A stretch of 64,000 nucleotides of DNA, taken from an uncultured Clostridia bacterium (lineage in GTDB: Bacteria > Bacillota > Clostridia > TANB77 > CAG-508). Position numbers and translations under genes: made by a program. Positions 21,283 to 47,739 of this stretch are shown piece after piece. Where the stretch lies: contig CAKOWY010000003.1 in the NCBI GenBank assembly GCA_934129895.1, positions 15,031 through 79,030 on the forward strand. The letters are read 5' to 3'. Under the pieces are notes generated by a model. The model had not been told where the DNA came from and did no database searches. It worked only from the letters and a program-made list of their open reading frames with translations. Numbering within the stretch: position 1 is the stretch's first letter; the number at the start of each line of letters is the position of its first letter.

Positions 21283-21357
21283 TGGGCTGTAGCCAAGCGG
21301 TAAGGCATTAGACTTTGACTCTAACATGCGCTAGTTCGAATCTAGCCAGCCCAACCA
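21283..21357 (+). tRNA. tRNA-Gln (TTG)
   Basis: Acceptor TGGGCTG/CAGCCCA, anticodon stem-loop TTAGA-CTTTGAC-TCTAA, T-arm GCTAGTTCGAATCTAGC and an encoded CCA. Confidence 0.85.
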
Positions 21358-21446: not shown

Positions 21447-22247
21447 TTATACTTTTACCTCAGAGAAAAGTTCTCTCAGTCTCAAACCTTCCGGTTCGAT
21501 TTTGGTCAAAACTCCATACACCTTCTGCCCTACTTTAAGCTTTTCGCCTCCAGTTACATGATAGATTCCCTTTTGAGCCGGATTAATCTCGCAGAAATAC
21601 GAATCATAATTCAGCCTGCTTGTAATGGTTGCATCAATCAGGTCTCCAACAATGTATGTTTCAGGTTCAGGAGTTGCCGTCTGTTTCCGCGATACACTGA
21701 TACGATAGTAATCAGCATAAGTTTCTTTCGAAACAACCTTCACTTTGATCTTTTCCCCAATCTTAAAATAGTTCTGAAGTTCATAGATCTTTGCACGAGA
21801 AACTTCAGTGCAGTGGCACAAGGCGATAAGGTTGCCAATCTTGACAAAAATGCCCCAGGGAGCAAATGAGTAAATCGGAGCAAAATATGTTTCTCCAATT
21901 ACAACATTTTCGAGCTCCTTTTTCAGGAACTCTTTCCGAGACACGCTATACAGCCATGTTCTCTTCTTTTTCCCATGAACGGAAAAAACTTTTTTCCGCT
22001 TGCTTTTGACAATCACCCCAACAGGGTTCTCAAATATGGTCAAAATTTCCTTTATTCCTTTAGGGTAACTCGGAGAAACATCGTACTCCAACTCACCAAA
22101 TGGAATTTCTACCTGGCTTTGAGGATCAATCCAAATCAAAGCCTTCTTTTCCATCTTGTCGATTATGACTTGTTCGCCTTGGCAATCAATCATAATCGAC
22201 TGACCAATTTTCAATCCACCGTTGTTCTTGTTTTTGTTTCTTTTCAT
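21447..22247 (-). CDS. S1 RNA-binding-domain protein (two S1-like OB folds), G+C-rich orphan
   Basis: 'GETYFAPIYSFAPWGIFVKIGNLIALCHCTEVS...IGEKIKVKVV' and 'VGDLIDATITS...GQKVYGVLTKIEPEGLRL' fit the S1 pattern. The basic N-terminus is KRNKNKNNGG. Start set at the ATG preceded by AAAGGTGA; the ORF-track start is 22265. Confidence 0.55.
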   Translation of the reverse strand: MKRNKNKNNGGLKIGQSIMIDCQGEQVIIDKMEKKALIWIDPQSQVEIPFGELEYDVSPSYPKGIKEILTIFENPVGVIVKSKRKKVFSVHGKKKRTWLYSVSRKEFLKKELENVVIGETYFAPIYSFAPWGIFVKIGNLIALCHCTEVSRAKIYELQNYFKIGEKIKVKVVSKETYADYYRISVSRKQTATPEPETYIVGDLIDATITSRLNYDSYFCEINPAQKGIYHVTGGEKLKVGQKVYGVLTKIEPEGLRLRELFSEVKV

Positions 22248-22356
22248 TTTTTTCACCTTTCTCATGTTGTTTGATTTTTAGCTTATGAAAATTTTTATAA
22301 TTATCTCCTTTCTTAAGATTTGGTTATTAACCATCTCTTATATTATACCATTATTT

Positions 22357-33705: not shown

Positions 33706-33987
33706 TTATGATTTTATTTCTTTTACAGCTTCAGATAATTTATTTCTAAATTCTTCTTCTTCATCATCAATTAATCCCATAAAGTGGATCTCTTCTATTT
33801 GTGAATGATCAAATAAATAATTACTTGTTGATACTAGCATTCCCTCTGGATATAAGCATCCACAATAATCCCATATTTTTTTCTCTTTGCTATCATCTTC
33901 AATAGGTAAATATCCTGTTATCATTAATCTTTTTTCACCATCTTTTAGTTTTACAACACTTCCTATAGGTAAATATTTTTCTTCCAT
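33706..33987 (-). CDS. DUF4176-like small protein (type VII-associated)
   Basis: 'LPIGSVVKLKDGEKRLMITG...DYCGCLYPEG...YLFDHSQIEEIHFMGLIDDEE' matches my memory of DUF4176. Tandem paralogue of the next gene. Confidence 0.65.
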   Translation of the reverse strand: MEEKYLPIGSVVKLKDGEKRLMITGYLPIEDDSKEKKIWDYCGCLYPEGMLVSTSNYLFDHSQIEEIHFMGLIDDEEEEFRNKLSEAVKEIKS

Positions 33988-34011
33988 TACAAATTTCCTC
34001 TTTCTTTAGTT

Positions 34012-34305
34012 TTAGTTATTTTGACTATTAAATTGTTTTAAAGCTTCTGTTAATTTATTCTTAAATTCTTTTTCTTCATCATTTACAAGTCCAACATGAG
34101 CTATTTCTTCTATTTGTGAATGATTAAATAAATAATTATCTGTTGATGTAATTATTCCCTCTGGATATAAACATCCACAATAATCATATATTTCCTTTTT
34201 TCCATCTTTATTATCTTCGTATTGTAAAAAACCTGTTATCATTAAATTCTTTTCTCCATCTTTTAATTTTACAACACTTCCTATTGGTAAATATTTTTCT
34301 TCCAT
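34012..34305 (-). CDS. DUF4176-like small protein (type VII-associated)
   Basis: The first 19 residues are nearly identical to 33706-33987, and the same conserved blocks follow. Confidence 0.65.
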   Translation of the reverse strand: MEEKYLPIGSVVKLKDGEKNLMITGFLQYEDNKDGKKEIYDYCGCLYPEGIITSTDNYLFNHSQIEEIAHVGLVNDEEKEFKNKLTEALKQFNSQNN

Positions 34306-34382: not shown

Positions 34383-34997
34383 TTATTGAACTGTATTTGA
34401 TTTTTCTGCATTTTCTATATCTTGTTGTGTTTGATTCATTAATCTTACAAATTGTGTATTAATATTATCAAAAGCAGAATTAATTTTATCTTCTAATTCT
34501 TTCATTTTTGATCTATATGTATCTGCAGCTTCACTTTTCCATGATACATTATCTAATTGTGCTTTTACTTTGCTCATTAAATCTTTTGTTTTGTTAAATC
34601 CTTCTGATATTGTTCTTTGTGCATTGTTAACATCACCTGATACAAATCTCATTCCAACATCATTTGTAATTGGTAATGCTGATATTAAATTTGCATTTGT
34701 TTCTTCTGCTGATGTTACATTTTGGAATCTATCAGCATTTGAATATGTATTAGCTATTGTTTCCATTGAGAATGGAATATCAGTAACAATTAATTTTAAT
34801 AATTCATTTAATTGTGGTTCCATTTCATTAAATATTTTAACTAATTCATTATATCTTGCTCCATACCATGAATTATGCATTTCTTCAACCTTTGCATATA
34901 CATTTTTTAGTTCTGTATTTAATTCTACAGCTCCTTCTCTCATATCTTTTGCAACTTTTGCCATTTGTTCATAATCTGCATCTGCTATATTTGCCAT
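34383..34997 (-). CDS. double-length WXG100-like protein (204 aa)
   Basis: 'HNSWYGARYNELV' (W-x-G) in the first half and 'VSWKSEAADTYRSKM' in the second half. RBS AAGGAGG. First gene after the promoter. A hairpin at 34347-34377 follows it. Confidence 0.6.
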   Translation of the reverse strand: MANIADADYEQMAKVAKDMREGAVELNTELKNVYAKVEEMHNSWYGARYNELVKIFNEMEPQLNELLKLIVTDIPFSMETIANTYSNADRFQNVTSAEETNANLISALPITNDVGMRFVSGDVNNAQRTISEGFNKTKDLMSKVKAQLDNVSWKSEAADTYRSKMKELEDKINSAFDNINTQFVRLMNQTQQDIENAEKSNTVQ

Positions 34998-35050: not shown

Positions 35051-35079
35051 TTTATACACTTAATTACTGTATTTGTCAA
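35051..35079 (-). promoter_or_regulatory. promoter of the type VII-like operon (TTGACA-17-TATAAA)
   Basis: On the minus strand the -35 is at 35079-35074 and the -10 at 35056-35051. A ~54-nt leader runs to the ATG at 34997. Confidence 0.55.
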
Positions 35080-35127: not shown

Positions 35128-35165
35128 TAAAAAGAAGCTCCCCAGGGAACTATTCCCTAGGGAGC
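35128..35165 (-). terminator. GC-rich rho-independent terminator of the RelA/SpoT-like gene
   Basis: The minus strand reads GCTCCCTAGGGAAT-AG-TTCCCTGGGGAGC followed by TTCTTTTTA. Confidence 0.7.
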
Positions 35166-35181
35166 AAAAGGATATTAGGCC

Positions 35182-36165
35182 TTATTGCGGAATCAGCGTT
35201 GTGGAGACTCGACGCTCGGTATACTCCTTAGCATTATGGATACCATTGATATCCTCATCCTTGCTTTCATATCCGCTAAAACCAATGATGTGAACTTTAC
35301 TAAAGTCATCCACACAAAAAACCTTGTTGATGTACTTGTCAACTTCAGAAAGCTCCTCTTCTGATAAGCCTCCTGTCATTTTGTACACGTCATGCGAGGC
35401 TTTGCCATGTTCGGCTTCCTCTTCCATCTGCCGACTTTTCAGTTGAATTTCAAACAAGCACCCTGCAAGCACCTCAGAATACATCTGAATAGACATTGTA
35501 AACTGATATGCTCGATAGCCATTTTCTTTTGGCTCCTTGATGTAATCCTTTATAAAGTCAATGCCAAACGGAGTGTTTAAGACACACTTGATAACTTCTT
35601 TGTCGGGCAACAAAATGTTTTTGTTATTTGCTACCCAATCTGCAAATTCCTTTCTCATCTTACGGTTTTTGGCTGCAAGAATACCCGAAATGCATTCGAA
35701 TATTTTGTAAATTATCTGCTCCACTTCAGTCTCAGGCAGTTCGTTTTGCACAATTGCCTTAATTCCGAATCTATCCCTTATGTTCGCAGATAATGTTCCG
35801 TTGGACTTCTTTAAGAGTTTGGTTAACTCACTTTCCAGTGCTTTGCATCTCGCCTTAAGCTTGATGTCAATATGCATATTCCTTGTGCTGTTGAGCCAAA
35901 GGATAATATACATCATCGTAATGATAATGTATATAGAAAAGTTTGTTATCTCAAAAGTCCTTTGTCTTGTTCCAATACATCCTCTCATTCCATCCAAGAA
36001 TGTTTCAAAAGCTTCTACATCCTCCTCATCATCAAGTTCAACTTGATTCAAAATGTCGTATAGGTTATTTGCGATTTCCAAAAGGTTGGATGATTTTTCT
36101 ACAGCCTGTTGATAGGCCTCGTGAATCATCCGGAGTGTTTTCATTTGAAATTTTTGTACTGACAC
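35182..36165 (-). CDS. RelA/SpoT-homologue (small-alarmone-synthetase-like nucleotide pyrophosphokinase) with N-terminal TM helix
   Basis: Synthetase motifs appear in order: 'KARCKALESELTKLLKK', 'IRDRFGIKAIV', 'KENGYRAYQFTM', 'FEIQLKSRQMEEEAEHGKASHDVYK'. A TM-like 'FSIYIIITMMYIILWL' lies at residues ~76-91. GTG start after GAGGAA. Hand counts give ~40% G+C. Confidence 0.7.
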   Translation of the reverse strand: MSVQKFQMKTLRMIHEAYQQAVEKSSNLLEIANNLYDILNQVELDDEEDVEAFETFLDGMRGCIGTRQRTFEITNFSIYIIITMMYIILWLNSTRNMHIDIKLKARCKALESELTKLLKKSNGTLSANIRDRFGIKAIVQNELPETEVEQIIYKIFECISGILAAKNRKMRKEFADWVANNKNILLPDKEVIKCVLNTPFGIDFIKDYIKEPKENGYRAYQFTMSIQMYSEVLAGCLFEIQLKSRQMEEEAEHGKASHDVYKMTGGLSEEELSEVDKYINKVFCVDDFSKVHIIGFSGYESKDEDINGIHNAKEYTERRVSTTLIPQ

Positions 36166-36311
36166 TATTCCTCAATCCTTTCTATTCCGCTTTACGCGTT
36201 TATGTTAACATTATAACATAAAATCGAAAAAAAGTATAGATTTTCCAGTCAAAAAGTGATATAATCTCAATCGAAATATGTATTTTTCATAAAAAGAAGG
36301 AGGAAATTAAA

Positions 36312-37433
36312 ATGAAAACTGTACCAATTACATTATTAACAGGATATTTAGGAGCTGGAAAAACAACTCTTATAAATCATATTTTAAATAATCAAGATGG
36401 TTACAAAGTTGCTGTAATTGTTAATGATATTGGAGAAGTAAATATAGATGCATCTTTAATTGGAAAAGGTGGTGTTGTTACAGAAACAAATGACAGCCTT
36501 GTTCCTTTACAAAATGGTTGTATATGTTGTACTTTAAAAGTTGATTTAATGCAACAAATTGTTGACTTAGTAAAAACAGGAAATTTTGATTATATATTAA
36601 TAGAGGCTAGTGGAATTTGTGAACCTATTCCAATTGCTCAAACAATAACTGTTTTACAAGATTCTACAAAACAATATGGATTACCAAAAATCTGTAGATT
36701 AGACAATGTTGTATCTGTTGTTGATGCATTAAGATTAAGAGATGAATTCAATTGTGGTGAAGAACTTGAAAAAAAAGAAATTGATGATGAAGATATCGAA
36801 AATTTATTAATTCAACAAATTGAATTCTGCAATACTTTAATTTTAAACAAGGTAGATGAACTTTCTAAAGACGAACTTGCCAAAGTTAAAGCTGTTGTAA
36901 AAAAATTACAACCAAGTGCAAAAATAATAGAAACGAACTATTCAGATGTTGATTTCAGAGAAATTATGGATACTAAAGCTTTTGATTTTGAAAAAGCTTC
37001 ACTTTCAGCTGGATGGGCTCAAGAACTTGACAAAACAGAGGAAGAAGCTGAAGAAGGAGAAACAGAAGAATATGGAATTGGAACATTTGTATATTATAGA
37101 AGAAAACCATTAGTTGAATCAAAATTCCATAACTTTGTTAATTCCTTACCAAGAAATATAATTAGATGTAAAGGTATTGTTTGGTTTGAAAATGATGATG
37201 AAATGTCTTATGTTTTTGAACAAGCAGGAAAGCAAACAGGAGTATATGAAGCTGGCGAATGGATTGCTACTTATCCATTAAAAGATCAACAAGCATTTAG
37301 AAAAGCTAATGCTGATTTGGAAAGAGATTGGGATGAAAATGTTGGAGATAGAATGGTTAAACTTGTTTTCATCGGTCAAAAAATGGATAAAAAATCTATA
37401 TGTGAAGAACTTGATAAATGTTTAGAAAAATAA
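36312..37433 (+). CDS. COG0523/CobW-family G3E GTPase (putative metal chaperone)
   Basis: P-loop 'GYLGAGKTTL', 'GCICCTL' CxCC motif, acidic linker 'EEEAEEGETEEYG'. RBS GAAGGAGG. Confidence 0.8.
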   Translation: MKTVPITLLTGYLGAGKTTLINHILNNQDGYKVAVIVNDIGEVNIDASLIGKGGVVTETNDSLVPLQNGCICCTLKVDLMQQIVDLVKTGNFDYILIEASGICEPIPIAQTITVLQDSTKQYGLPKICRLDNVVSVVDALRLRDEFNCGEELEKKEIDDEDIENLLIQQIEFCNTLILNKVDELSKDELAKVKAVVKKLQPSAKIIETNYSDVDFREIMDTKAFDFEKASLSAGWAQELDKTEEEAEEGETEEYGIGTFVYYRRKPLVESKFHNFVNSLPRNIIRCKGIVWFENDDEMSYVFEQAGKQTGVYEAGEWIATYPLKDQQAFRKANADLERDWDENVGDRMVKLVFIGQKMDKKSICEELDKCLEK

Positions 37434-38510: not shown

Positions 38511-40334
38511 TTATTTTTTTCTATGTAATGGTATTATAATATTAAATTCTGTACCTTTTCCTTCTTCTGTTTTATATACTATGTCTCCTCCAAAATGTGC
38601 TTTTATATTTGAGTATGACATATATAATCCTAATCCTGTTCCATTTTTTCCTTTTGTTGTAACCATTTCTTTAAATAGTTTTTCTTGAACTTCTTTTGGT
38701 AATCCTCCAGCAAAATCTCTAACTGTAAAGATTATATCTTCACCATTTTTATTTACTTCTAATTCTATATTTTGATTTCGCTTTCCATTATACGCTTGGA
38801 TTGCATTTGATATCATATTATTTACTACCTGAACTAAACTATTTACATCCCCATCTAATGTTATATTTTCATCTGTTCTCATTAAAACATTTAAATATAT
38901 ATATGCATTTTTTAATTCGTGCTTCATTAATATATCTACTCTTTTTACAAGTTCTTCTATTGTAAATGTTACTGCTTGATCATTTGACAATGCTACCGCT
39001 TGTCCTTTTACTGTTGTAATAATATCTGACATATATTCAATATGTGCTCTTATCTTAGGAATCCAACTTTCCATTTCTGCTGCTATTTCATGATGATCTT
39101 GCGAATTTACTAATGGATCATCTATTGATTCGTCATATTCTTTTATTAGATTTTCTAGCCCCTCTGCTGCACCTGCTATTGACATTATTGGTGTTTTTAA
39201 GTTATGTGCTATTCCTCCTATTAATTGTCCTAATGATGCTAAACGTTCTCTTTCCATTAATATTTCTTGGTTATTTTTTATTGTTTCCATATCTTCTTTA
39301 TGTTGAGTTATATCTTTCAATAAAAATAATGTTCCTAATGAATTATTATCCGAGCTTATTGGTGTTATCTCTATTTTAAAATATTTCTTTATTTTTTCAA
39401 AATGTTGTTCAAAAGATATTGTTGTTTCTGTTGTATTTGCTTTATTAATTGAACTCTCGATTTTGGTAACTGCTCTACTTGATATTTGTTTTTGTTGTAA
39501 AAATTTTATAAAATTTTTACTTCTAATATCTGCTGGCTTTAATTTAAAAATATCTAAAAATGTTTTATTAAAATCTGTTATCATATTATTTTCATCTAAA
39601 ACAACATATCCATCAGAAATTCTATCTACTATCTCTTGTAATGCAATTGGGGTTAATTTGAATAGATCAAATTTAAATATTCCAATAGTAAAACATATAA
39701 TAGTTACAGAAAATGCTATTGGTGTAGCATATATTGAAACACTAACACTTCCTATACTTCCAAGCATATTTACAACAATAGGTACCAAAGAACCTATTAT
39801 TAACATTATAGCTTGCTTTGAAAAGAACCCAGAATTTTTTATAGAATATCTTAATAATTTTATTAAAGATATTGCTAATAATAAATATGTATAATATGTA
39901 TGTACATAAAACCATGGTCCATAAGCTGTAGACAAACTCATTGAATATTCTTTATAAAATAAATGATGAAAATCATTTGTCCATAATAATATTAATGATG
40001 TTATTGGTATAATACAAAGTAATAAATACCATTTTTTAAATTTGAATTTTCCATTTTCAAATATGTTTGTCATAATATAAAATGCTACAGGCAAAAAGCA
40101 AATACTTATATAGTACAAATCAAAAAAGTACTTTAATTTTATATTATATTTGTCTAAAAATATAATCTGTAATATCATTCCTATTACCCAAAATAAAATT
40201 AATGCAAATATAACTATAAATATTTTAGACAAATCTTTTTTCTTTTTTGGTTTTACCAATTGTGTTAAAAATAATATTAATATTGCAGAAACAAAAACGA
40301 GTATCCAAAATACTATTGAATCAGTTGTTGACAT
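38511..40334 (-). CDS. orphan sensor histidine kinase (N-terminal 7TM domain, PAS, HisKA, HATPase)
   Basis: About seven TM helices, a PAS-like middle region, H-box 'GGIAHNLKTP', N-box 'NMISNAIQA', 'RDFAGGL', 'GTGLGL'. No response regulator is adjacent. Confidence 0.8.
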   Translation of the reverse strand: MSTTDSIVFWILVFVSAILILFLTQLVKPKKKKDLSKIFIVIFALILFWVIGMILQIIFLDKYNIKLKYFFDLYYISICFLPVAFYIMTNIFENGKFKFKKWYLLLCIIPITSLILLWTNDFHHLFYKEYSMSLSTAYGPWFYVHTYYTYLLLAISLIKLLRYSIKNSGFFSKQAIMLIIGSLVPIVVNMLGSIGSVSVSIYATPIAFSVTIICFTIGIFKFDLFKLTPIALQEIVDRISDGYVVLDENNMITDFNKTFLDIFKLKPADIRSKNFIKFLQQKQISSRAVTKIESSINKANTTETTISFEQHFEKIKKYFKIEITPISSDNNSLGTLFLLKDITQHKEDMETIKNNQEILMERERLASLGQLIGGIAHNLKTPIMSIAGAAEGLENLIKEYDESIDDPLVNSQDHHEIAAEMESWIPKIRAHIEYMSDIITTVKGQAVALSNDQAVTFTIEELVKRVDILMKHELKNAYIYLNVLMRTDENITLDGDVNSLVQVVNNMISNAIQAYNGKRNQNIELEVNKNGEDIIFTVRDFAGGLPKEVQEKLFKEMVTTKGKNGTGLGLYMSYSNIKAHFGGDIVYKTEEGKGTEFNIIIPLHRKK

Positions 40335-40337
40335 CTG

Positions 40338-42062
40338 TTATATCTCCTTCCTTATCAATTCAATAAATTTACTTATGTAATTATTTGAAATCTCTGGCCA
40401 ATTAAATTTACATTTTTTCAAATAATTAATTGTAAAGTTAGAATTTAAAATTATATCACTATTATAATTTAAATGATAATTATTATCAAGATCACTAACT
40501 ATATTTTGTAAATTTATTTTTTTCTGTTCATTTTGTAAAATTTCTGATATCTGCTTTTTAAATATTGTTTCTGGCACAACTTCCATTTTATATCCAAATT
40601 CTTTTATTATATCAAAATAATCTTTTAAAGTAACTGTATTATGATTATATACATGAAATATCCTATTTGTTTTTGAAAAATTAGTTACAATTTTATATAT
40701 AGCATTTGCAGCAATATCTACAGGTGTAAACTCAAGTTGATTTTCTAATAAATACTCAGGAACTATTCCTAGTTTCATAAATAATGCCACTTTAGTTATA
40801 AATGCGTTTTCATTTATATTTTCTTGAAAATGTCCATCACATAGTCTTGGCATTAAATTTCCTAGACGAAGAATATATGCATCAACACCATTTGCAATTG
40901 CATTTAAAATAATTGTTTCCGCTTCAAATTTTGTATATGTATATACATTATCAAGATATTGACCTATATACAAAGAACTTTCATTAAATTCTTTTTTATT
41001 TCCATACTCACCACTTAATTTTTTTCCTGAAACTCCAGTTGTAGAAATTTGATAAAATCTCTTGTTAAATGTTTTACAAAAGTCAACAATGTATTTTACA
41101 CTTTTAACATTTGTATCATAAAATTTGTCATATACACCAAAATGGGCAACATTTGCAGCACTATTTATTACTAAATCAGCCTCTTCTGAAATTTTTAACA
41201 GATCCTTATCTGACAATCCAAAATTCGGTTGACATATATCTCCTTGAACAAGAACTATTTTATCTCCAATATATTTGTTATATTTCTCACCAAAATAATA
41301 AGTTAATTTTTGAGTTATTTTTCTTGTTATAGACATACCTGGTTCTTTTCTAATTATACAATAAATTTTTCCATTTTCGTTTTTCAAAAATTCCTCTAGT
41401 ATATGTATTCCTAAATATCCTGTAACTCCTGTAAGTAATATATTACGAGGATGATACTCTTGGATTTTTTCATCATTTCTTGTATTTTTTAATATATTTA
41501 AAGAACTTTCTGGAATTTCTTCAATTTTATTATGTTGAAATTCATCATTTGAATTTATTTTTTCTTCAATATCTAAAACTGTTGAACACTTAAATATATC
41601 AGAATAAGAAATCTTATTTGTAATTTCTAATAATTCTATATTTAATTTCATAGCTAATAAAGAATCTCCCCCAAGTTCAAAGAAATTATCATTTATTCCA
41701 ATTGGACTAACATTTAAAACTTTTTGAAAAATATCAACTAATTTTTTCTCTAATTCATTTCCAGGAGCAATATATTCTTCACCACATAACTTTGATAAAT
41801 TTTGTGGTAATGGTAATTTTTTTCTATCTATTTTTCCATTTGGAGTATATATAAACTCATCTAATGGAACATAATATGATGGAACCATATATCGTGGCAA
41901 ACTTTTAGAAAGATATTTTCTCAATTCATTTATAGAAATTCTTTTATTTGCAACAAAATATGCAGAAATAAAATCTCTATTGTTAGCAGTTTGTTTTAAA
42001 ACTGCTACTTTTTCTATATTTGGATATTTTGAAATTAAATTTTCGATTTCTCCGTAATTCAA
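40338..42062 (-). CDS. NRPS fragment: end of A2, T2 and terminal thioester reductase (downstream half of one frameshifted gene)
   Basis: A10 'NGKIDRKKLP', T 'LGGDSLLAMKL', R domain 'LLTGVTGYLGIHILEEF' and 'YTYTKFEAE'. The ORF-track Met is not a real start; the frame continues from 41983-47739. Confidence 0.8.
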   Translation of the reverse strand: MNYGEIENLISKYPNIEKVAVLKQTANNRDFISAYFVANKRISINELRKYLSKSLPRYMVPSYYVPLDEFIYTPNGKIDRKKLPLPQNLSKLCGEEYIAPGNELEKKLVDIFQKVLNVSPIGINDNFFELGGDSLLAMKLNIELLEITNKISYSDIFKCSTVLDIEEKINSNDEFQHNKIEEIPESSLNILKNTRNDEKIQEYHPRNILLTGVTGYLGIHILEEFLKNENGKIYCIIRKEPGMSITRKITQKLTYYFGEKYNKYIGDKIVLVQGDICQPNFGLSDKDLLKISEEADLVINSAANVAHFGVYDKFYDTNVKSVKYIVDFCKTFNKRFYQISTTGVSGKKLSGEYGNKKEFNESSLYIGQYLDNVYTYTKFEAETIILNAIANGVDAYILRLGNLMPRLCDGHFQENINENAFITKVALFMKLGIVPEYLLENQLEFTPVDIAANAIYKIVTNFSKTNRIFHVYNHNTVTLKDYFDIIKEFGYKMEVVPETIFKKQISEILQNEQKKINLQNIVSDLDNNYHLNYNSDIILNSNFTINYLKKCKFNWPEISNNYISKFIELIRKEI

Positions 42063-45000
42063 TTCGTAATCCTCTAATTTTTATTTGATTGTCACTTCTT
42101 CCTAAGCAAATAATATTTCCATCATCTAAATATCTTCCTAAATCACCACTTTTATACATTAGTGTATCTTTTATGAATGGATTCTTTACAAAACTTTTAC
42201 TTGTTAGTTCTAAATTATTAAGATATCCTCTTGCTAATCCATCACCAGAAATATATATTTCCCCAACAACTCCTACTGGAACTGGTTGTAAATCTTTATC
42301 TAATATATACATTTGATCATTGTAAAATGGTTTTCCTATTGTAATAAAATCATCTTTTACTTCTGTAAGTGTACAATAATATGTTTCAGTTGGTCCATAT
42401 CCATCATATATAGTTATATTTGCCAAACTCTTTAATTTTTTTACTAATGCTATAGGCACTTGTTCACCAGTTAATGTTAGATATTTTAAATCTTTTAAAC
42501 TAGGAATATTTTCTATATCATTAACAAATATTTGCATTACAGATGGTGTTGCCTGTGTTGCTGTAACATTATTTTTTATAATTACATCATTTAATAATTT
42601 TGGAGTAGTTTGTTCATCTTCATTTGCAATTACAACTTTCACTCCTCTTTGCAATGGAATAAGAGCTTCGTATGAAAATATATCAAAACTTACTGTTGAA
42701 ATAGATACTATAGCTTGATCTTGTGGATTTTTTAAATATCCCACATAATCATTGCAATAATTTGCAAAGTTTACAAGTGTTTTATGTTTTTGCATAACTC
42801 CCTTTGGTTTTCCTGTTGAACCAGAAGTAAAAATAATATAAAGTAAATCATTTAAGCTATTTATATTCTTTATATTTTCATTAGGTAATCCATATATGTC
42901 ATTATTGTCCAAATCTACTATTATTTGATTTTTATAGTTCATTTTTTTAGCAATTTTCTTACATGTAAGCAATATAGATGCAGATGCTTCTTCTAGCATA
43001 TAATTTATTCTTTCTTCTGGGTAATTTGGATCGATTGGAATATAAGTTCCTCCAGCTTTCATAATTCCCAATATAGCAATAATCATTTCTAATGATCTGT
43101 TTACCATTACACCTATTGCATCTTCTCTTTTAACTTGCTTTACATTTCTTAAGTAATATGCTAAACTATTAGCTTTTTCATTTAATTCTTTATAAGTCAA
43201 TTTTTTATCTTCAAATACTAGAGCTATTTTGTCTGGTGTTTTGTTTACTTGCTCTTCAAAAAGAGTAGAAAATGTTTTTTCTGGATATTCTTTATAAGTA
43301 TTATTAAATCCATAAAGTATTTTATTTTTCTCTTTAGCTGAAAGTATTTGTATTTCTTTTATTTTTGAGTTCGTATTTCTCATAATATAATCTATTGTAT
43401 TCATATAATTTTCAAATAGATTTTCTATAGTTTCTTTCTTAAATAAGTCAGTACAATATTCAATATTAATTGAATGTGTTTTGGGTTGAATTTCTAAAGA
43501 CAAATTGAATTTTGAAATCTTATTATTAATTGATACTACTTGTGCTTCTTTATCATTTATTTTTAAGAATGTTTCCTGCTTATTTTGGTAAGTAAACATT
43601 ACATCAAATAATGGATTTCTTGAAGCATCTGTATCAACTTTTAATTTTTTTATCAGCATATCAAATGGATATGGTTGATATGTCAAATCCTCTAATAATT
43701 GTTCTTTTATTTCAATCAAAAATTCTTCAAATGTCTTTTCTGAATCTATTTTTCCTCTTAAAACTATATTATTAACAAACATTCCGAACATTCTCTTTGT
43801 TTCATTTCTATCTCTATTTGCAATAGGACTACCTATGTTTATATCGTCTTGTCCTGTGTATTTATATAATATTACAAAAAGAATTGAAACAAAAAACATA
43901 TATGGAGATACTCCTAATTTTTTCGCATATCTCTCCATTTTTCTAAAAAGTTTTTCATCAATAACATTTATTATTTTCTTTCCATTATAAGATCTTAATG
44001 TAGGAACTTTATAATCATAAGGTAAGTTTAATTGTGAAAAACTGCAGTCTTTAAATTTATTTACCCAATAATCTTCTTGAGTTTTTATTAGTGAACTATT
44101 ATTATATTCATTTTCCCATACTGCATAATCTTTATATTGAATTGGTATATTCTTTAAATCCTCTCCATTATATAATCTATTAAATTCTATAACTAAATTA
44201 TTTAAAGCTGTTCCATCCATTATTATATGATGTGTATCTAATAACAATAATGTCTTTTTATTATCTATATAATGCATTTCAACTCTGAATAATGGAGCCT
44301 TCTCAAGTTCAAATGGTTTAGAAAAAGTATTTACTATATCTTGAATTTCACTTTCACTATTCTGATATGTATCAATATTAAATTTAACCTTATCTTCAAC
44401 TTTTTGTACAACTGATTCATTCTCAACAACAAATGATGTTCTTAACGTACTATGTCTATTAATTATTTTTTCAAATACATTTTGTACTTTATCTTTATCT
44501 AAAATTTCATCAATAATCATTGCCCATGGCATATTATAAACAATATTATTGTCCCCAATCATTTTTACATTATAATAAATTCTTTTTTGAGCTGATGACA
44601 AAGGATAACTTTCTTGAATTGGAGCTTTTTCTATTTTAATTTTCAAAGTATTATTTGTTCTATTTTGTTTTATATAATCAGACATATCTTTTATTGTATA
44701 ATTTGATAAAAGATCTTTTATATTTATTTGTACATTAAATTTAGATAAAATCTTTGTTGATAATGTAATCGCTGTTAATGAATCTCCTCCAAGTTCTAAT
44801 AAAGTATTATTTATTCCAACATTAGTAACTTGCAACATTTTTTCTATTATTTTAATTAATTCTTTATCTATTTCATTTCTTGGTTTTATAGCTTTTTTAT
44901 TATTTCCCTTAAATTCAGGATCTGGCAATGATTTTCTATCTATCTTACCATTTAATGTATATGGAAATTTCTCTAATTGGATAAAATATTGTGGAATCAT

Positions 45001-47739
45001 ATATTCTGGTAATTCTTTATTTATTGATTCTTTCAACAAATTTTTGTCGACTTTTTCTGATGTATAATATGCAATTAATGCATCTCTGTTATTTACTTTT
45101 CTTTTTAAAACAACTGCTTGCTTTATTCCACTATAATTTTCTATTACGTTTTCAATTTCCCCTAATTCAATTCTAAATCCTCTAATTTTAACTTGGAAAT
45201 CGGTTCTTCCAAGATGAACAATATCTCCACTTTCTTTATAATATGCTAAATCATTTGTATTATATATTGTTTTCCCATTAAATGGATTTTTTACGAACTT
45301 TTCATTTGTTAACTCTTCTCTATTTAAGTACCCTTTTGAAACACCATTTCCACCAATATAAAGTTCACCTGGTATTCCAAATGGTAATAATTTGCAATTT
45401 TTATTTAAAATATAACATTGTGTATTAGCAATTGGATATCCTATTGTTATTTCTTTTTCATTTGTTAATTCTTTTACTGTTGACCAAATTGTTGTTTCTG
45501 TCGGTCCATACATATTAAATATTTTTGCTTTTGTGTTTTTTTGCATTTTACATAACAGTTTATTTCCAATTGATTCTCCTCCAACTAAAATTTCTGTCAA
45601 GTTCTTTATAAACTCTAAATTATTTTTTTCTGCAAATATTGTTGAATATCTTGATGGAGTTGTTTGTATCATATTTACTTTATTTTTTAGGCATAATTCA
45701 TTTAACAATACTGGCATATTTTGTTCCTCTTCATTAGCAATTACTAATGTCATTCCAGATGTTAATGCTCCCCATATTTCTAATCCAAATATATCAAAAC
45801 AAATAGTTGTTACAGATACCATTGTTTTTTGTGAATTAAAGTCTATTATCTTTTTTATTCCATTTATAAAATTGCATAAATTTTTATTTGTTACCATTAC
45901 TCCTTTTGGTTTTCCTGTAGAACCTGATGTATAAATAACATACGCTAATGTATTTGGATCAATTTTTGTTTTTATATTCTCATTTTCACTATTATATATA
46001 TGATTTTCTTTTATACCTATATTAATTTTTAAACAATCATCCAAACTTACTTTATCTGTATTTTCATTTACTAAAATAACCTTTGTACTACTATTTTCAA
46101 TCATATATTTTATTCTATCAATTGGATATTCTGGATCTATTGGTAAATAAGTTGCACCACATTTTAAAATTGCTATTAGTCCAATAATCATTTCAGGTGA
46201 TCTATTAACCATAATTCCAACAATATCTTCTTGATTTATATCATTTTTCATTAATTCTCTTGCTAATTGATTTGCTCTTCTATTTAACTCAAAATAAGTC
46301 ATTTTCTCTTCATTACTAACAATAGCAATCTTATTTGGTGTATTAATTACTTGTTTTTCAAAATATTCTATAATAGTTTTCTCTTCATCATATTCCAAAT
46401 CTGTTTTATTAAATTCCACAAGCAATTTTTCTTTTTCATCTGGAGTAACAATATCAATCTGACTAAGCTTTACATCTTCGTTTGAAATTACTTGTTTCAT
46501 AATATTTAATATTCTTTTGTGAATATTTGAAATATCTTCTGAATTATAAATACTTGTTTTATAATCATAAGCAACATTCAAATTTCCAGTATCATTCAAA
46601 TCATAAATTTGAATATCAATATTATCTGCACAACATCCATTAAATGTCCATTCTGTTTCATATTCAATATTTCCTTCGTTTTGTTTTGCATTTGTAATTT
46701 GATATGATAACAAAATATTATATAAATTTGGAATGCTTTTATTTTCTTTTCTTAGCTCTTCTAATAAACTTTGATATGAATATTTTTGATGTTTCAACAT
46801 ATCCATAGAATCTCTTGATATATTTTTTACAAATTCCTTAAATTCTATATCTTCATTAAGATTAATCTTAAATGGAATCATATTTATAAACATTCCAGCA
46901 GCATTCTTTTCTTTAAAATTAGTTCTGTTTAAAATAGGTGTGCCTATAACAAATTCATCTAAATTTGAAATTTCACCAATATATATTGCAGATACTGCCA
47001 TAAAGAAGTTATATAATGATATTTTATTTTCTTTACAATAATTTTTTATTTTTGTTACATTTTCTTTTGAAATTTCATATTGTTTTCTCTCTCCAGTAGG
47101 ATCTGTTTCGTCAATATCTCCCTTTACACTTCCTGGTATTCTTGCAATTTCTGGAATAGTTTTAAATCTATCTATCCAATATTTTTTATCTTTGTTAAAT
47201 TTTTCACTTTTTTGGTATTCTTGCTCTGATTTAATATAGTCTATATAAGAATATATAGCCTTTGTTTCAACTTCTTTATTTTGAATTAATTCTGAATAAG
47301 TCTTTATAATGTCATTACAAATAAGCGCTAATGTCCACGCGTCTGAAATTAGATGGTGTATATTAAGCATAAAAGCCCCTTTTCCATCTATAAATTTAAA
47401 GATATAAAATTTAAATAATTTTGAATTCTCTAATTGAAATTTTGTTTTTATAATTCTGTTTCTTTCTTCTTCTAGCTGATTTTTGCCCGCAATATTAATA
47501 GTGTCTATCTGAATTTCTTTTTTTTCAGATAACACCTGTTCAACATTTCCATTATTCAATTTAAACTCTAGCCAGAAATTATCATGTTTTTTGCACACAA
47601 TTTGTATAGATTCTTTTAGTTTTTCGAAATCTACCTTTTCATTAATTATTGCTGTTCCGCAAATAGAATTTACTGAACTACCTTTATAATATTGTTCAGT
47701 AACCCAAATTGATTTTTGAGAATAGGTTAGTTCTTTCAT
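41983..47739 (-). CDS. NRPS fragment: C-A-T-C-A (upstream part of one frameshifted gene)
   Basis: C1 'HHLISDAW', A1 'YTSGSTGKPKGV...NGKIDRKSLP', T1 'LGGDSLTAI', C2 'HHIIMDGT', A2 'FTSGSTGKPKGV...IKIRGLRIEL', then out-of-frame nonsense. Confidence 0.85.
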   Translation of the reverse strand: MKELTYSQKSIWVTEQYYKGSSVNSICGTAIINEKVDFEKLKESIQIVCKKHDNFWLEFKLNNGNVEQVLSEKKEIQIDTINIAGKNQLEEERNRIIKTKFQLENSKLFKFYIFKFIDGKGAFMLNIHHLISDAWTLALICNDIIKTYSELIQNKEVETKAIYSYIDYIKSEQEYQKSEKFNKDKKYWIDRFKTIPEIARIPGSVKGDIDETDPTGERKQYEISKENVTKIKNYCKENKISLYNFFMAVSAIYIGEISNLDEFVIGTPILNRTNFKEKNAAGMFINMIPFKINLNEDIEFKEFVKNISRDSMDMLKHQKYSYQSLLEELRKENKSIPNLYNILLSYQITNAKQNEGNIEYETEWTFNGCCADNIDIQIYDLNDTGNLNVAYDYKTSIYNSEDISNIHKRILNIMKQVISNEDVKLSQIDIVTPDEKEKLLVEFNKTDLEYDEEKTIIEYFEKQVINTPNKIAIVSNEEKMTYFELNRRANQLARELMKNDINQEDIVGIMVNRSPEMIIGLIAILKCGATYLPIDPEYPIDRIKYMIENSSTKVILVNENTDKVSLDDCLKINIGIKENHIYNSENENIKTKIDPNTLAYVIYTSGSTGKPKGVMVTNKNLCNFINGIKKIIDFNSQKTMVSVTTICFDIFGLEIWGALTSGMTLVIANEEEQNMPVLLNELCLKNKVNMIQTTPSRYSTIFAEKNNLEFIKNLTEILVGGESIGNKLLCKMQKNTKAKIFNMYGPTETTIWSTVKELTNEKEITIGYPIANTQCYILNKNCKLLPFGIPGELYIGGNGVSKGYLNREELTNEKFVKNPFNGKTIYNTNDLAYYKESGDIVHLGRTDFQVKIRGFRIELGEIENVIENYSGIKQAVVLKRKVNNRDALIAYYTSEKVDKNLLKESINKELPEYMIPQYFIQLEKFPYTLNGKIDRKSLPDPEFKGNNKKAIKPRNEIDKELIKIIEKMLQVTNVGINNTLLELGGDSLTAITLSTKILSKFNVQINIKDLLSNYTIKDMSDYIKQNRTNNTLKIKIEKAPIQESYPLSSAQKRIYYNVKMIGDNNIVYNMPWAMIIDEILDKDKVQNVFEKIINRHSTLRTSFVVENESVVQKVEDKVKFNIDTYQNSESEIQDIVNTFSKPFELEKAPLFRVEMHYIDNKKTLLLLDTHHIIMDGTALNNLVIEFNRLYNGEDLKNIPIQYKDYAVWENEYNNSSLIKTQEDYWVNKFKDCSFSQLNLPYDYKVPTLRSYNGKKIINVIDEKLFRKMERYAKKLGVSPYMFFVSILFVILYKYTGQDDINIGSPIANRDRNETKRMFGMFVNNIVLRGKIDSEKTFEEFLIEIKEQLLEDLTYQPYPFDMLIKKLKVDTDASRNPLFDVMFTYQNKQETFLKINDKEAQVVSINNKISKFNLSLEIQPKTHSINIEYCTDLFKKETIENLFENYMNTIDYIMRNTNSKIKEIQILSAKEKNKILYGFNNTYKEYPEKTFSTLFEEQVNKTPDKIALVFEDKKLTYKELNEKANSLAYYLRNVKQVKREDAIGVMVNRSLEMIIAILGIMKAGGTYIPIDPNYPEERINYMLEEASASILLTCKKIAKKMNYKNQIIVDLDNNDIYGLPNENIKNINSLNDLLYIIFTSGSTGKPKGVMQKHKTLVNFANYCNDYVGYLKNPQDQAIVSISTVSFDIFSYEALIPLQRGVKVVIANEDEQTTPKLLNDVIIKNNVTATQATPSVMQIFVNDIENIPSLKDLKYLTLTGEQVPIALVKKLKSLANITIYDGYGPTETYYCTLTEVKDDFITIGKPFYNDQMYILDKDLQPVPVGVVGEIYISGDGLARGYLNNLELTSKSFVKNPFIKDTLMYKSGDLGRYLDDGNIICLGRSDNQIKIRGLRIELRRNRKFNFKISKYRKSSSFKTNC

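What the first reader, a model, noticed from the sequence alone, without database searches (positions are those of the whole stretch)
35128..36225. Foreign, membrane-anchored RelA/SpoT-homologue (toxSAS-like?) inserted as a solitary cassette next to the type VII promoter
Seen: a ~1.1-kb block interrupts ~18-25% G+C surroundings; two 60-nt lines in it count 37% and 43% G+C. It has its own GC-rich terminator (35128-35165). Its TATAAT -10 (36210-36215) is overlapped by the 10-bp palindrome ATGTTAACAT (36202-36211).

The 327-aa product has all four synthetase motifs of RelA/SpoT homologues in order: R-x-K-x3-S 'KARCKALES', 'DRFGIKAIV', 'ENGYRAYQ', and 'EIQLKSRQMEEEAEHGKASHDVYK'. There is no hydrolase domain.

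Unusually, the catalytic domain is preceded by ~70 helical residues and a strongly hydrophobic helix (FSIYIIITMMYIILWL). A ~65-aa tail follows it.

Established: stand-alone RSH synthetases include housekeeping SAS (RelQ/RelP), toxic toxSAS of toxin-antitoxin pairs, fused CapRel-type phage-defence proteins, and the secreted (p)ppApp synthetase effector Tas1.

Inference: its horizontal origin, solitary state (no adjacent antitoxin-sized ORF) and extra domains argue against a housekeeping SAS. They favour a fused, self-regulated toxin or defence module, or a membrane-signal-controlled alarmone or tRNA pyrophosphokinase.
Basis: partly seen in the sequence, partly recalled or inferred. Interest (0 to 1): 0.7.

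Follow-up and report, generated by a model that had tools for sequence, protein, structure and literature searches.

The report
Odd-composition stand-alone alarmone synthetase gene
This is a real single-gene unit encoding a stand-alone RelA/SpoT-type alarmone synthetase from an undescribed family of uncultured low-G+C gut Clostridia; it is soluble and long-resident rather than membrane-anchored or newly inserted, yet its codon composition is abnormal in every genome that carries it.

Summary
ORF 35182-36165(-) encodes 327 aa with a RelA_SpoT synthetase domain and all catalytic motifs. It has no hydrolase domain. It has its own extended -10 promoter, a conserved ribosome-binding site and a strong terminator. 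G+C is 0.39 against 0.27 for the window, and third-codon-position G+C (GC3) is 0.43 against about 0.10.

- The N-terminal helices, the hydrophobic helix and the C-terminal tail occur in all ~120 relatives.
- The hydrophobic stretch is only 10-16 residues and is often interrupted by K/H/N/D. AlphaFold2 gives one compact domain (pLDDT 91, pTM 0.88). It is therefore not a membrane anchor.
- The gene is fixed at this site in the species, syntenic in sister species, and found at a few conserved housekeeping sites across a clade of 1.5-1.8 Mb Clostridia.
- Its closest solved relatives are Rel, RelP and RelQ, not toxic small alarmone synthetases.

It is still an outlier.
- GC3 exceeds the neighbour median in 48 of 48 genomes.
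- Identity between near-identical flanks drops sharply across the cassette, so alleles have been replaced.
- dN/dS is 0.03-0.16.
- Eight of 52 relatives carry an upstream small ORF copied from the N-terminal module.

Best reading: a soluble, regulated (p)ppGpp-type synthetase of a new subfamily. A toxin- or defence-like role is not excluded.

The parts
36233..36238 (-). -35-like hexamer TATACT, 17 nt upstream of the -10
   Evidence: Read from the sequence. The pattern T(A/G)TAC(T/A)-17 nt-TGnTATAAT recurs upstream of orthologues in at least 8 diverged genomes.
36210..36218 (-). extended -10 promoter element TGTTATAAT
   Evidence: Read from the sequence. TGnTATAAT is conserved in orthologous upstream regions. 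Promoter function is inferred, not shown.
36202..36211 (.). 10-bp palindrome ATGTTAACAT overlapping the -10; probably not a functional site
   Evidence: One match in the window. The exact 10-mer appears in 36 of 100 shuffles. It is not conserved in orthologous promoters.
36176..36183 (-). ribosome-binding site AGAAAGGA, 10 nt before the GTG start
   Evidence: AGAAAGGA sits 8-13 nt before the start codon in orthologues. This supports GTG 36165 as the start, which adds 7 residues relative to the family's usual M-T-x-x-T-L start.
35182..36165 (-). coding sequence of the 327-aa stand-alone RelA/SpoT-homologue synthetase (stop codon included)
   Evidence: ORF. PF04607 at 55 bits. About 120 full-length homologue clusters. 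AlphaFold2 pLDDT 91 and pTM 0.88. Foldseek top hits are RelP, RelQ and Rel.
35881..36165 (-). N-terminal four-helix module, residues 1-95; its last helix (residues 70-95, nt 35881-35958) is the hydrophobic helix
   Evidence: Predicted helices 8-23, 28-40, 47-68 and 70-95, with pLDDT 91-98. Present in all relatives. Not a conserved transmembrane segment. Helices 1-3 are duplicated as a separate upstream ORF in 8 of 52 related loci.
35374..35880 (-). catalytic synthetase core, residues 96-264 (five strands, RxKxxxS, D131, KxNGY, EIQ, H..YK)
   Evidence: Invariant columns R106, K108, S112, D131, K213, Y217, E239, Q241, H258 and Y261, with N215 nearly invariant. These align with Rel_Seq 1vj7 and RelP 6fgk.
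35185..35373 (-). conserved C-terminal tail, residues 265-327 (VDDFSK..I.GF.SY..DD.DGIH..RRIS.TLVP)
   Evidence: Strongly conserved across the family: F283, D287, F288, G295, F296, D305 and G308 are invariant. The model has a strand at residues 313-320. A similar I.GF tail is seen in an outgroup of ~290-aa synthetases.
35128..35165 (-). intrinsic terminator (13-bp stem with 8 G-C pairs, loop 3, T run)
   Evidence: Terminator scan. The hairpin is kept with different sequence in the sister species L012.

Best explanation
The gene encodes a soluble, cytoplasmic, stand-alone RelA/SpoT-homologue pyrophosphokinase, that is, a small alarmone synthetase. It belongs to an uncharacterised subfamily confined to a clade of uncultured, small-genome (about 1.5-1.8 Mb), 25-31% G+C gut Clostridia.

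**Shown**
- It has the synthetase fold and every residue that Rel, RelP and RelQ use to bind the ATP pyrophosphate donor (R106, K108, S112, K116), Mg2+ (D131, E239) and the guanine-nucleotide acceptor (K213, N215, Y217, Q241).
- It has no hydrolase domain.
- It is transcribed as its own unit: extended -10 promoter, conserved ribosome-binding site, GTG start and strong terminator.
- The N-terminal four-helix module, including the hydrophobic helix, and the C-terminal tail are family-wide parts of one compact domain.
- The protein is under purifying selection.

**Inferred**
- It transfers pyrophosphate from ATP to the 3'-OH of GDP, GTP or GMP to make (p)ppGpp or pGpp.
- The N-terminal module is a regulatory or oligomerisation module. 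Some lineages duplicated it as a separate small upstream protein that could act on the enzyme in trans.

The gene is not a recent insertion in this genome. It is a long-term resident of the clade at a few conserved sites. Nevertheless it behaves as a replaceable cassette whose synonymous sites stay 2-4 times richer in G+C than the rest of the genome. The cause of that composition is not explained. The leading candidates are selection on codon usage or composition tied to its expression, and recurrent allele replacement.
For: **Domain and motifs**
- PF04607 scores 55 bits against a cut-off of 27, with no other domain.
- The catalytic residues sit on invariant columns.
- A profile of the family finds Rel_Seq 1vj7 (E 3e-11), RelP 6fgk (6e-11), RelA and RelQ. 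No toxic small alarmone synthetase appears even at E<=10.

**Fold**
- AlphaFold2 gives pLDDT 91 and pTM 0.88.
- The top 50 Foldseek hits in the PDB are all RelP, RelQ, Rel, RelA or SpoT.

**Not a membrane protein**
- The apolar run is 10-16 residues in relatives, with H/K/N/D inside it in many.
- M85 and N92 are invariant and W90 nearly invariant.

**Long-term resident**
- 22 contigs with the identical protein and 23 with the identical CobW all show cobW|RSH|WXG100.
- The 71%-identical orthologue has the same synteny.
- 21 loci show the TrhP-like U32 gene next to RSH, usually with RlmN beyond it and OMT-BipA or MtaB downstream.
- RSH and U32 pairwise identities correlate (Pearson 0.82).

**Selection**
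- dN/dS is 0.03-0.16.

**Own transcription unit**
- Promoter and ribosome-binding-site pattern are conserved, and the terminator is present.

**No mobile reservoir found**
- No family member was found in IMG/VR, GenBank phages, PLSDB plasmids or PHROGs.
Against: Several features are unlike a housekeeping alarmone synthetase.

- GC3 exceeds the neighbour median in 48 of 48 genomes, and the gene ranks top in 39 of 48. Outgroup-type synthetases in equally low-G+C hosts are mostly normal.
- The family evolves much faster than its flanks: mean 51% amino-acid identity where the U32 neighbour is 82%.
- Alleles 46-50% identical sit beside flanks that are 97-98% identical.
- Identity drops sharply exactly across the cassette.
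- Eight of 52 relatives have a toxin-antitoxin-like two-gene layout with a small upstream ORF.

Several things could not be determined.
- Product identity (ppGpp, ppApp or tRNA pyrophosphorylation) cannot be read from sequence.
- Whether the host also has a long Rel or a hydrolase could not be checked.
Confidence: 0.5

Rival explanations
1. It is a self-regulated toxic synthetase, a fused toxin-antitoxin or phage-defence module. The N-terminal helical module or the C-terminal tail holds the enzyme off. A trigger such as phage infection or stress releases it, and it arrests growth through an alarmone burst, (p)ppApp synthesis or tRNA pyrophosphorylation.
For: - Deeply divergent alleles sit at a fixed site between near-identical flanks, with sharp boundaries.
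- The composition is atypical, as in the window's other rare accessory genes.
- The unit is self-contained.
- Eight of 52 relatives carry a translationally coupled upstream ORF of 55-68 aa that is paralogous to N-terminal helices 1-3, which is an antitoxin-like layout.
- There is a partial PADLOC hit to the candidate defence family PDC-S33, E 9e-8, covering only residues 204-245.
Against: - Every sampled genome of the clade that had enough sequence at the site carried the gene, and its position is kept over deep divergence. Defence genes are usually patchy.
- No solved toxic small alarmone synthetase is matched by profile at E<=10, and none is in the Foldseek top 50.
- The acceptor motif KxNGYxS is that of genuine (p)ppGpp synthetases.
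- The C-terminal tail is among the most conserved parts, not a hypervariable sensor.
- dN/dS is 0.03-0.16 with no sign of diversifying selection.
- No phage or plasmid copies were found.
- The window itself has no partner ORF.
Confidence: 0.27
2. It is a recently acquired foreign gene, inserted as a cassette next to the type VII secretion promoter from a donor of about 40% G+C. Its composition simply reflects that donor.
For: - GC3 is 0.43 against 0.10 in neighbours.
- It has its own promoter and terminator.
- The window's other high-GC3 genes look like rare accessory genes. The S1-domain protein, for example, has only 4 homologue clusters.
- Allele replacement at the site has happened in the clade.
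Against: - The gene is fixed in the species.
- The nearest relative outside the species, at 71-72% identity, is the syntenic orthologue. No closer candidate donor exists among 5.8 billion proteins.
- All 48 homologue-bearing genomes examined are themselves 25-32% G+C, yet the gene is GC3-rich in all of them.
- Polarised synonymous changes show no excess of G/C-to-A/T: 60 against 100 in the other direction. The parsimony bias behind these counts is acknowledged.
- No copy was found on phages, plasmids or viral contigs.
Confidence: 0.1
3. It is a type VII-secreted alarmone synthetase effector used against neighbouring bacteria, like the LXG/WXG-fused exported alarmone synthetases.
For: - It lies directly upstream of a WXG100-DUF4176-EssC cluster.
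- Type VII-associated exported alarmone synthetases exist (PMC12691689).
Against: - No LXG, WXG or other export domain was found at E<=1.
- There is no adjacent immunity gene.
- Its own terminator separates it from the secretion operon.
- Most relatives lie between housekeeping genes with no type VII genes nearby.
- One allele group sits beside cobW where the EssC cluster is absent.
Confidence: 0.03
4. It is a membrane-anchored, signal-controlled synthetase, with the hydrophobic helix serving as a transmembrane anchor.
For: In the window protein the Kyte-Doolittle 19-residue maximum is 1.92, over a 16-residue apolar run.
Against: - In relatives the run is 10-16 residues and often contains K, H, N or D, for example TIMHIIKWLN and SYLLKTIMYLILWMN.
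- Specific residues are invariant (M85, N92), with W90 nearly so, which suggests packing rather than lipid contact.
- pTM of 0.88 for a single compact domain places the helix confidently against the rest.
- A transmembrane topology would put either the conserved N-module or the ATP-using domain outside the cell.
Confidence: 0.05

Closest known systems
RelP / RelQ (SAS2 / SAS1) small alarmone synthetases of Bacillota
   Same: - Single synthetase domain with no hydrolase.
- Same five-strand core and the same motifs: RxKxxxS, the D-Mg site, KxNGY(R/Q)S and EIQ(I/L)R.
- Best Foldseek hits: 6ex0, 6fgk and 5ded, probability 1.0.
- A stand-alone gene.
   Different: - About 100 residues longer.
- It has an N-terminal four-helix module and a 63-residue conserved tail instead of the RelQ/RelP termini.
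- TM-score normalised to the query is only 0.3-0.36.
- The NCBIfam RelQ equivalog scores 14 bits against a cut-off of 320.
- It evolves fast and has atypical codon composition.
Synthetase domain of long Rel/RelA (e.g. Rel_Seq, PDB 1vj7)
   Same: - Best profile-to-sequence match, E 3e-11.
- The stretch KDYI..PK.NGYQS...EIQ(I/L)RT..MH..AE.G.A.H..YK is almost collinear with the Rel consensus.
   Different: It has no HD hydrolase domain and no TGS, ZFD or ACT regulatory region, so it has no ribosome-sensing apparatus.
CapRel-type fused toxin-antitoxin alarmone-synthetase-fold defence proteins and two-gene toxic small alarmone synthetase modules (FaRel2, PhRel2)
   Same: - A stand-alone RelA/SpoT-homologue synthetase with an extra module in the same polypeptide.
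- Cassette-like evolution.
- A small upstream ORF in 8 of 52 relatives.
   Different: - No detectable sequence or fold match to solved members.
- The extra module is N-terminal and helical, not a C-terminal pseudo-zinc-finger.
- The tail is conserved rather than hypervariable.
- The gene was present in every sampled genome of its clade that had enough sequence at the site.
- Toxicity is untested.
cloRel, a small alarmone synthetase subgroup of Clostridia (Atkinson et al. 2011, PMC3153485)
   Same: A Clostridia-restricted, uncharacterised small alarmone synthetase subgroup, listed for C. difficile 630 together with Rel and RelP.
   Different: No cloRel sequence was available here, so identity with this family was not tested. 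The genome scan found the family only in uncultured metagenome-assembled genomes and not in C. difficile, but that scan relied on family-specific peptide patterns.

Membership tests
RelA/SpoT homologue (RSH) synthetase superfamily | RelA_SpoT (PF04607) domain above Pfam's gathering score | tested here: met
   55.1 bits against a cut-off of 27, E 1e-14.
RelA/SpoT homologue (RSH) synthetase superfamily | Catalytic motifs RxKxxxS, the Mg-binding Asp, the G-loop KxNGY and EIQ(I/L)(R/K), in order | tested here: met
   R106, K108, S112, D131, K213, Y217, E239 and Q241 are invariant in 28 family members and N215 is nearly invariant. All align to Rel_Seq and RelP.
RelA/SpoT homologue (RSH) synthetase superfamily | Synthetase fold | tested here: met
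   AlphaFold2 pLDDT 91. The top 50 Foldseek PDB hits are all RelP, RelQ, Rel, RelA or SpoT, at probability 0.96-1.0.
Small alarmone synthetase (single-domain RSH) | No HD hydrolase domain and no TGS/ACT C-terminal region | tested here: met
   No such Pfam or NCBIfam hit at E<=1. The protein is 327 aa.
RelQ/RelP housekeeping small alarmone synthetases | Passes the equivalog model and has the ~210-230 aa architecture | tested here: not met
   NF053588 (GTP diphosphokinase YjbM) scores 14.4 bits against a cut-off of 320. The N- and C-terminal extensions differ.
Toxic small alarmone synthetase toxin-antitoxin modules (FaRel, FaRel2, PhRel, PhRel2) | Conserved two- or three-gene operon with a small antitoxin gene | tested here: inconclusive
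   The window and 44 of 52 relatives are single-gene units. Eight of 52 have a coupled upstream ORF of 55-68 aa paralogous to the N-module.
Toxic small alarmone synthetase toxin-antitoxin modules (FaRel, FaRel2, PhRel, PhRel2) | Phylogenetic placement in those subfamilies | tested here: inconclusive
   No solved toxic member is matched by the family profile at E<=10 or appears in the Foldseek top 50. The published subfamily models were not available.
Toxic small alarmone synthetase toxin-antitoxin modules (FaRel, FaRel2, PhRel, PhRel2) | Growth arrest on expression that depends on the synthetase active site | not testable with these tools
   Needs expression assays.
CapRel-type fused toxin-antitoxin defence | C-terminal pseudo-zinc-finger antitoxin or sensor domain, variable between homologues | tested here: not met
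   The C-terminal tail is among the most conserved regions. PADLOC matches only residues 204-245 to PDC-S33, with no CapRel model hit.
Exported alarmone synthetases (Tas1/Apk1, LXG/WXG-fused, Sec-dependent) | N-terminal export domain (LXG/WXG, PAAR/Rhs, MuF or signal peptide) and usually an adjacent immunity gene | tested here: not met
   No such domain at E<=1. There is no adjacent small ORF in the window. Type VII adjacency is limited to one sublineage. Defining criteria are taken from PMC12691689.
Membrane-anchored protein | A hydrophobic helix of transmembrane length conserved across orthologues | tested here: not met
   Apolar run of 10-16 residues, interrupted by charged or polar residues in many orthologues. 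No dedicated transmembrane predictor was available.
cloRel subgroup (Atkinson 2011) | Match to the cloRel model or clustering with C. difficile YP_001088212 | not tested
   Neither the sequence nor the model is held here.

The most novel reading that the evidence does not exclude
The gene could be a positionally fixed but allele-swapping 'conflict' cassette. In this reading it is a stringent-type synthetase kept off by its own N-terminal module (copied as a free antitoxin-like protein in some lineages) and switched on by phage or stress to arrest growth. Its persistently G+C-rich, rare-codon coding sequence, with at least one CGG codon in all 52 genes, would act as a translational gate on expression. 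That would be comparable in logic to the bldA/TTA system of Streptomyces, but in an extremely A+T-rich genome.
Probability: 0.15. Interest if true: 0.75.

Novelty: new variant of a known kind. Interest (0 to 1): 0.45.

Why it matters
Small alarmone synthetases are usually sorted into quiet housekeeping enzymes and toxic or defence enzymes. This family blurs that line. Every sampled genome of a whole clade of reduced-genome gut Clostridia with enough sequence at the site carries the gene, at conserved sites. Its catalytic site looks like that of a (p)ppGpp synthetase. Yet it evolves like an accessory cassette, and its synonymous sites are far from the genome's composition in all 48 genomes examined.

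If the composition is maintained by selection, it would be a clear natural case of codon or composition-based control of a stress regulator. If it reflects constant allele replacement, the stringent-response machinery of these bacteria is a target of genetic conflict.

Either way, the N-terminal module and its free-standing copies offer a testable handle on how a stand-alone synthetase is regulated.

Tried and rejected
- **Palindrome as operator.** Rejected. It is at chance level and is not conserved.
- **Transmembrane anchor.** Rejected on family comparison and the structure model.
- **Rfam scan of the window.** Only 4 tRNAs were found. There is no riboswitch or leader near the gene.
- **Localised RNA structure or site-specific rare codons.** GC3 enrichment is uniform along the gene, 0.24-0.33 in every 20-codon block. 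There is only mild column overdispersion, z = 3.7.
- **tRNA-isoacceptor-specific codon choice.** Rejected as the sole cause. C-ending codons also double in two-fold pyrimidine pairs that are read by a single tRNA.
- **Hypermutation.** Within-species diversity in the gene, 0-0.019, is no higher than in the flanks. The sample was partly selected for an identical protein.
- **Comparing the gene with cobW as the 'flank'.** This was misleading. cobW is itself unusually conserved, at about 95% DNA identity, even between genomes whose other flanks do not align.
- **Polarised substitution counts.** Parsimony bias is evident in the control genes, so the result only argues against strong decay of G+C and is not decisive.
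- **dS ratios.** They are inflated by the Jukes-Cantor correction under skewed composition, so only the direction is used.
- **Short representative-library hits to profile positions 1-60/110.** The eight examined (of ten such hits) were frameshifted or truncated fragments, not free N-modules.
- **Naming the outgroup ~290-aa synthetases.** Cluster look-up and NCBIfam gave no names.
- **HD protein at 47859-48446.** It is a generic HD domain, not a SpoT/Mesh1-type hydrolase.
- **cloRel identity.** No sequence was obtainable.
- **Second RSH gene in the genome.** Not testable. No long Rel lies in the clade's held loci (about 1.3 Mb of the 2.1 Mb held), which is uninformative.
Full report
**1. What is in the window**

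ORF 35182..36165 on the - strand encodes 327 aa from a GTG start. Pfam finds only RelA_SpoT (PF04607), at 55.1 bits against a gathering score of 27. NCBIfam gives only partial matches to long RelA/SpoT models, and 14 bits against a cut-off of 320 for the RelQ equivalog. There is no HD, TGS or ACT domain.

The gene has G+C of 0.387 in a window of 0.267. The excess is confined to the third codon position (GC3): 0.43 against 0.09-0.12 in the neighbours, with positions 1 and 2 normal.

Downstream lies a terminator with a 13-bp stem and 8 G-C pairs at 35165-35137, followed by a T run. Upstream lies an extended -10, TGTTATAAT, at 36218-36210. It is preceded at 17 nt by TATACT and followed by the ribosome-binding site AGAAAGGA, 10 nt before the GTG.

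The exact 10-mer turns up in 36 of 100 shuffles, and orthologous promoters do not have it. Rfam finds nothing but four tRNAs in the whole window.

**2. The protein family**

A search of 5.8 billion proteins returns about 120 clusters. Apart from a handful of truncated or fragmentary entries, they are 297-373 aa long and cover 91-100% of the query. An exhaustive profile search of 1.84 billion representatives gives 69 clusters at E<1e-30.

A 28-member alignment shows that the N-terminal helices, the hydrophobic helix (consensus TYIxITxMYIIxWLN) and the C-terminal tail (VDDFSK..I.GF.SY..DD.DGIH..RRIS.TLVP) are family hallmarks. The catalytic residues R106, K108, S112, D131, K213, Y217, E239, Q241, H258 and Y261 are invariant, and N215 is nearly so.

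AlphaFold2 with this alignment gives pLDDT 91 and pTM 0.88. It predicts helices at residues 8-23, 28-40, 47-68 and 70-95, five core strands, and an extra strand at 313-320.

All of the top 50 Foldseek hits in the PDB are RelP, RelQ, Rel, RelA or SpoT. The family profile finds Rel_Seq, RelP, RelA and RelQ (E 3e-11 to 5e-5) and no toxic small alarmone synthetase even at E<=10. The stretch KDYI..PK.NGYQS...EIQLRT..MH.EA..G.ASH..YK is nearly the Rel consensus.

**3. The hydrophobic helix is not a membrane anchor**

In the window protein the Kyte-Doolittle 19-residue maximum is 1.92. In relatives the uninterrupted apolar run is only 10-16 residues. Many carry N, D, H or K inside it, for example TIMHIIKWLN. 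M85 and N92 are invariant and W90 is nearly invariant. The model places the helix with pLDDT of about 95 in a single compact domain.

I could not read the model coordinates or run a dedicated transmembrane predictor. Burial of the helix is therefore inferred.

**4. It is not a recent insertion at this site**

All 22 contigs read that encode the identical protein, and all 23 that encode the identical CobW neighbour, show cobW | RSH | WXG100-DUF4176-EssC. A 71%-identical orthologue in sister species has the same order.

A scan of one genome per GTDB species finds the family only in uncultured Clostridia or Bacillota metagenome-assembled genomes of 25-32% G+C. Three of these are complete chromosomes of 1.55-1.81 Mb.

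Clustering the neighbours of 49 loci gives a few recurrent contexts.
- In 21 loci a TrhP-like U32 gene lies immediately or one gene upstream of RSH, in most of them with RlmN (and PP2C) beyond it. Downstream lies either Methyltransf_3 OMT-BipA or MtaB-ROK.
- In 8 loci, including the window, RSH lies divergently next to cobW.

The gene is a single-gene unit separated from its neighbours by intergenic gaps on both sides (51-453 nt upstream, 9-666 nt downstream). In the commonest context it runs opposite to both neighbours. Pairwise identities of RSH and the U32 neighbour correlate (Pearson 0.82).

**5. It is an outlier everywhere**

*Composition.* GC3 of the RSH gene exceeds the median of its neighbours in 48 of 48 loci. 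The mean excess is 0.18, and the gene ranks highest in 39 of 48.
- The codon shift is generic. A-ending codons fall: ATA 0.17 against 0.53, TTA 0.27 against 0.64, AGA 0.40 against 0.85.
- C- and G-ending codons rise, including pairs read by one tRNA.
- The enrichment is uniform along the gene.
- Every one of 52 genes has 1-5 CGG codons. CGG accounts for 24 of roughly 150,000 neighbour codons.
- Outgroup-type synthetases in equally A+T-rich hosts are mostly normal, and those in G+C-rich hosts match their hosts.
- Synonymous sites of the flanks are near saturation across much of the clade. A single old acquisition should therefore have decayed by now.
- Polarised synonymous changes give 100 A/T-to-G/C against 60 G/C-to-A/T in RSH. 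This is not the 3-5-fold excess of G/C-to-A/T expected from decay. Parsimony bias is visible in the control genes, so the test is only indicative.

*Divergence.* Mean RSH identity is 51% where U32 is 82%, BipA 88% and RlmN 94%.
- L042 has a U32 that is 97-98% identical to five other genomes, but its RSH is only 48-50% identical to theirs.
- In DNA comparisons, flanks at 85-95% identity fall to 50-75% exactly across the cassette and then recover.
- Next to a CobW that is 97-98% identical to the window's, metagenome contigs carry at least four RSH allele types, 46-98% identical to one another. Every such contig with enough upstream sequence has one.
- cobW is itself unusually conserved, at about 95% DNA identity, even where the other flanks do not align. 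It is therefore a poor yardstick on its own.
- Replacement of alleles at a fixed site has therefore occurred. The protein is nevertheless under purifying selection, with dN/dS of 0.03-0.16. Within-species diversity is no higher than in the flanks.
- No family member was found in IMG/VR, GenBank phages, PLSDB plasmids or PHROGs.

**6. A partner ORF in some relatives**

In 8 of 52 loci a 55-68-aa ORF lies immediately upstream. These fall into two groups: L030/32/36/53 and L034/37/39/41. The ORF's stop lies about 4-16 nt before the RSH start where it was read (L030 and the L034 group), and the ribosome-binding site sits at or within its end.

Its product is 29-41% identical to N-terminal helices 1-3 of the window protein. 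It is kept intact between diverged lineages, and in the L034 group its GC3 is 0.38-0.47, like that of RSH.

The window has no such ORF. This shows that the N-terminal module is a separable unit. It is the best evidence for a regulatory or antitoxin-like role.

**7. Interpretation**

The best-supported reading is a soluble small alarmone synthetase of an undescribed subfamily, most likely making (p)ppGpp or pGpp. Built-in N- and C-terminal modules would regulate it or assemble it. It is expressed from its own sigma-A-type promoter.

The housekeeping-like evidence is fold, motifs, presence in every sampled genome of the clade that had enough sequence at the site, neighbours that act on the translation apparatus, and purifying selection. 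This outweighs the accessory-like evidence, which is composition, allele replacement and the occasional two-gene layout, but it does not cancel it.

I put a self-regulated toxin or defence role at about 0.27. A simple recent acquisition gets about 0.1. The type VII effector and membrane-anchor readings get 0.05 or less. Type VII-associated exported synthetases are known, but they carry LXG/WXG domains and have immunity genes, which are absent here.

The cause of the persistent composition anomaly is unexplained. The options I can name are selection on codon usage or composition linked to expression, recurrent replacement from an unsampled richer pool, and biased gene conversion at a recombination hot spot.

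**8. Comparison with known families, and novelty**

It works like RelP or RelQ and like the Rel synthetase domain. It fails the RelQ/RelP membership test, and it shows neither the domain hallmarks nor a conserved operon layout of the toxic, CapRel or exported families. Whether it equals the old 'cloRel' subgroup of Clostridia (PMC3153485) could not be tested.

I rate it a new variant of a known kind. The enzyme class is familiar. The architecture, and above all the evolutionary and compositional behaviour across a whole clade, is not.

Noticed in passing
window 21447-22265 (-), with tRNA-His and tRNA-Gln at 21194-21357 (+): A second G+C-rich single-gene cassette. It encodes a 272-aa S1-domain protein with GC3 of 0.43, the same as the RSH gene, and has its own G+C-rich terminator. 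It lies beside two tRNA genes. Only 4 homologue clusters exist among 5.8 billion proteins, so it looks like a rare accessory gene.
   Followed up: partly
window 10143-10541 (+); 56300-56713; 57444-59267 (-): GC3 across the window's ORFs is bimodal: 48 ORFs fall at 0.08-0.21. The further outliers are a 132-aa ORF with no family (0.44), an unclear ORF pair at 56.3-56.7 kb (0.52), and a 607-aa ABC/AAA_21-like ATPase (0.31) next to tRNA-Arg(ACG) and tRNA-Pro.
   Followed up: partly
window 36312-37433 (+): The divergent neighbour is a COG0523 GTPase, ZigA-like and below the NCBIfam cut-off. It is about 95% identical at the DNA level, and 97-98% at the protein level, in genomes whose other flanks do not align at all. 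It is far more conserved than anything around it, and in that sublineage it is always paired head-to-head with an RSH allele.
   Followed up: partly
window 35051-35079 (-) and the 90 nt around it; L002, L003, L005, L006 and L008 compared with L001: The WXG100/type VII operon has a TTGACA-17-TATAAA promoter just after the RSH terminator. In several same-species contigs a 90-nt deletion between direct repeats (GTAATAAAAAT) removes it. That leaves the WXG100 ribosome-binding site about 30 nt beyond the terminator's T run (94 nt after the RSH stop codon).
   Followed up: partly
window 39317-40566 and 40338-47739: Within the species, the N-terminal half of the histidine kinase (38511-40334) exists in two forms that are about 50% different: 607 aa with HisKA_7TM and PAS, against 664 aa. 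The adjacent non-ribosomal peptide synthetase is either 1918+516 aa or a single 1437-aa protein.
   Followed up: no
loci L030, L032, L036, L053, L034, L037, L039, L041 (just upstream of the RSH gene): A translationally coupled 55-68-aa ORF paralogous to N-terminal helices 1-3 of the synthetase. It is conserved between diverged lineages, and in the L034/37/39/41 group it is G+C-rich at third positions like the synthetase. It is absent from the window.
   Followed up: partly
loci L014, L018, L027-L064 (majority context): In most of the clade the synthetase gene sits on the opposite strand between a TrhP-like U32 (tRNA U34 hydroxylase-like) gene, with RlmN beyond it in most of these loci, and a Methyltransf_3 O-methyltransferase-BipA pair or MtaB. 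All of these act on tRNA, rRNA or the ribosome.
   Followed up: partly
loci L038 and L059 (L047 likely, by a shared upstream gene cluster): A second, outgroup-type synthetase of about 280-290 aa lies immediately upstream of the family gene in L038, and a second such ORF is also present in L059. In L038 both genes have near-normal GC3 (0.17-0.18), the lowest in the family.
   Followed up: no
window 33706-34305 (-) and 34383-34997 (-): Two tandem DUF4176 genes (93 and 97 aa, both beginning MEEKYLPIGSVVKLKDGEK) and a 204-aa WXG100-domain protein head the EssC (1526 aa, with an FHA domain) type VII cluster. The sister species has one DUF4176 gene, and the DNA alignment breaks down at this spot.
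   Followed up: no
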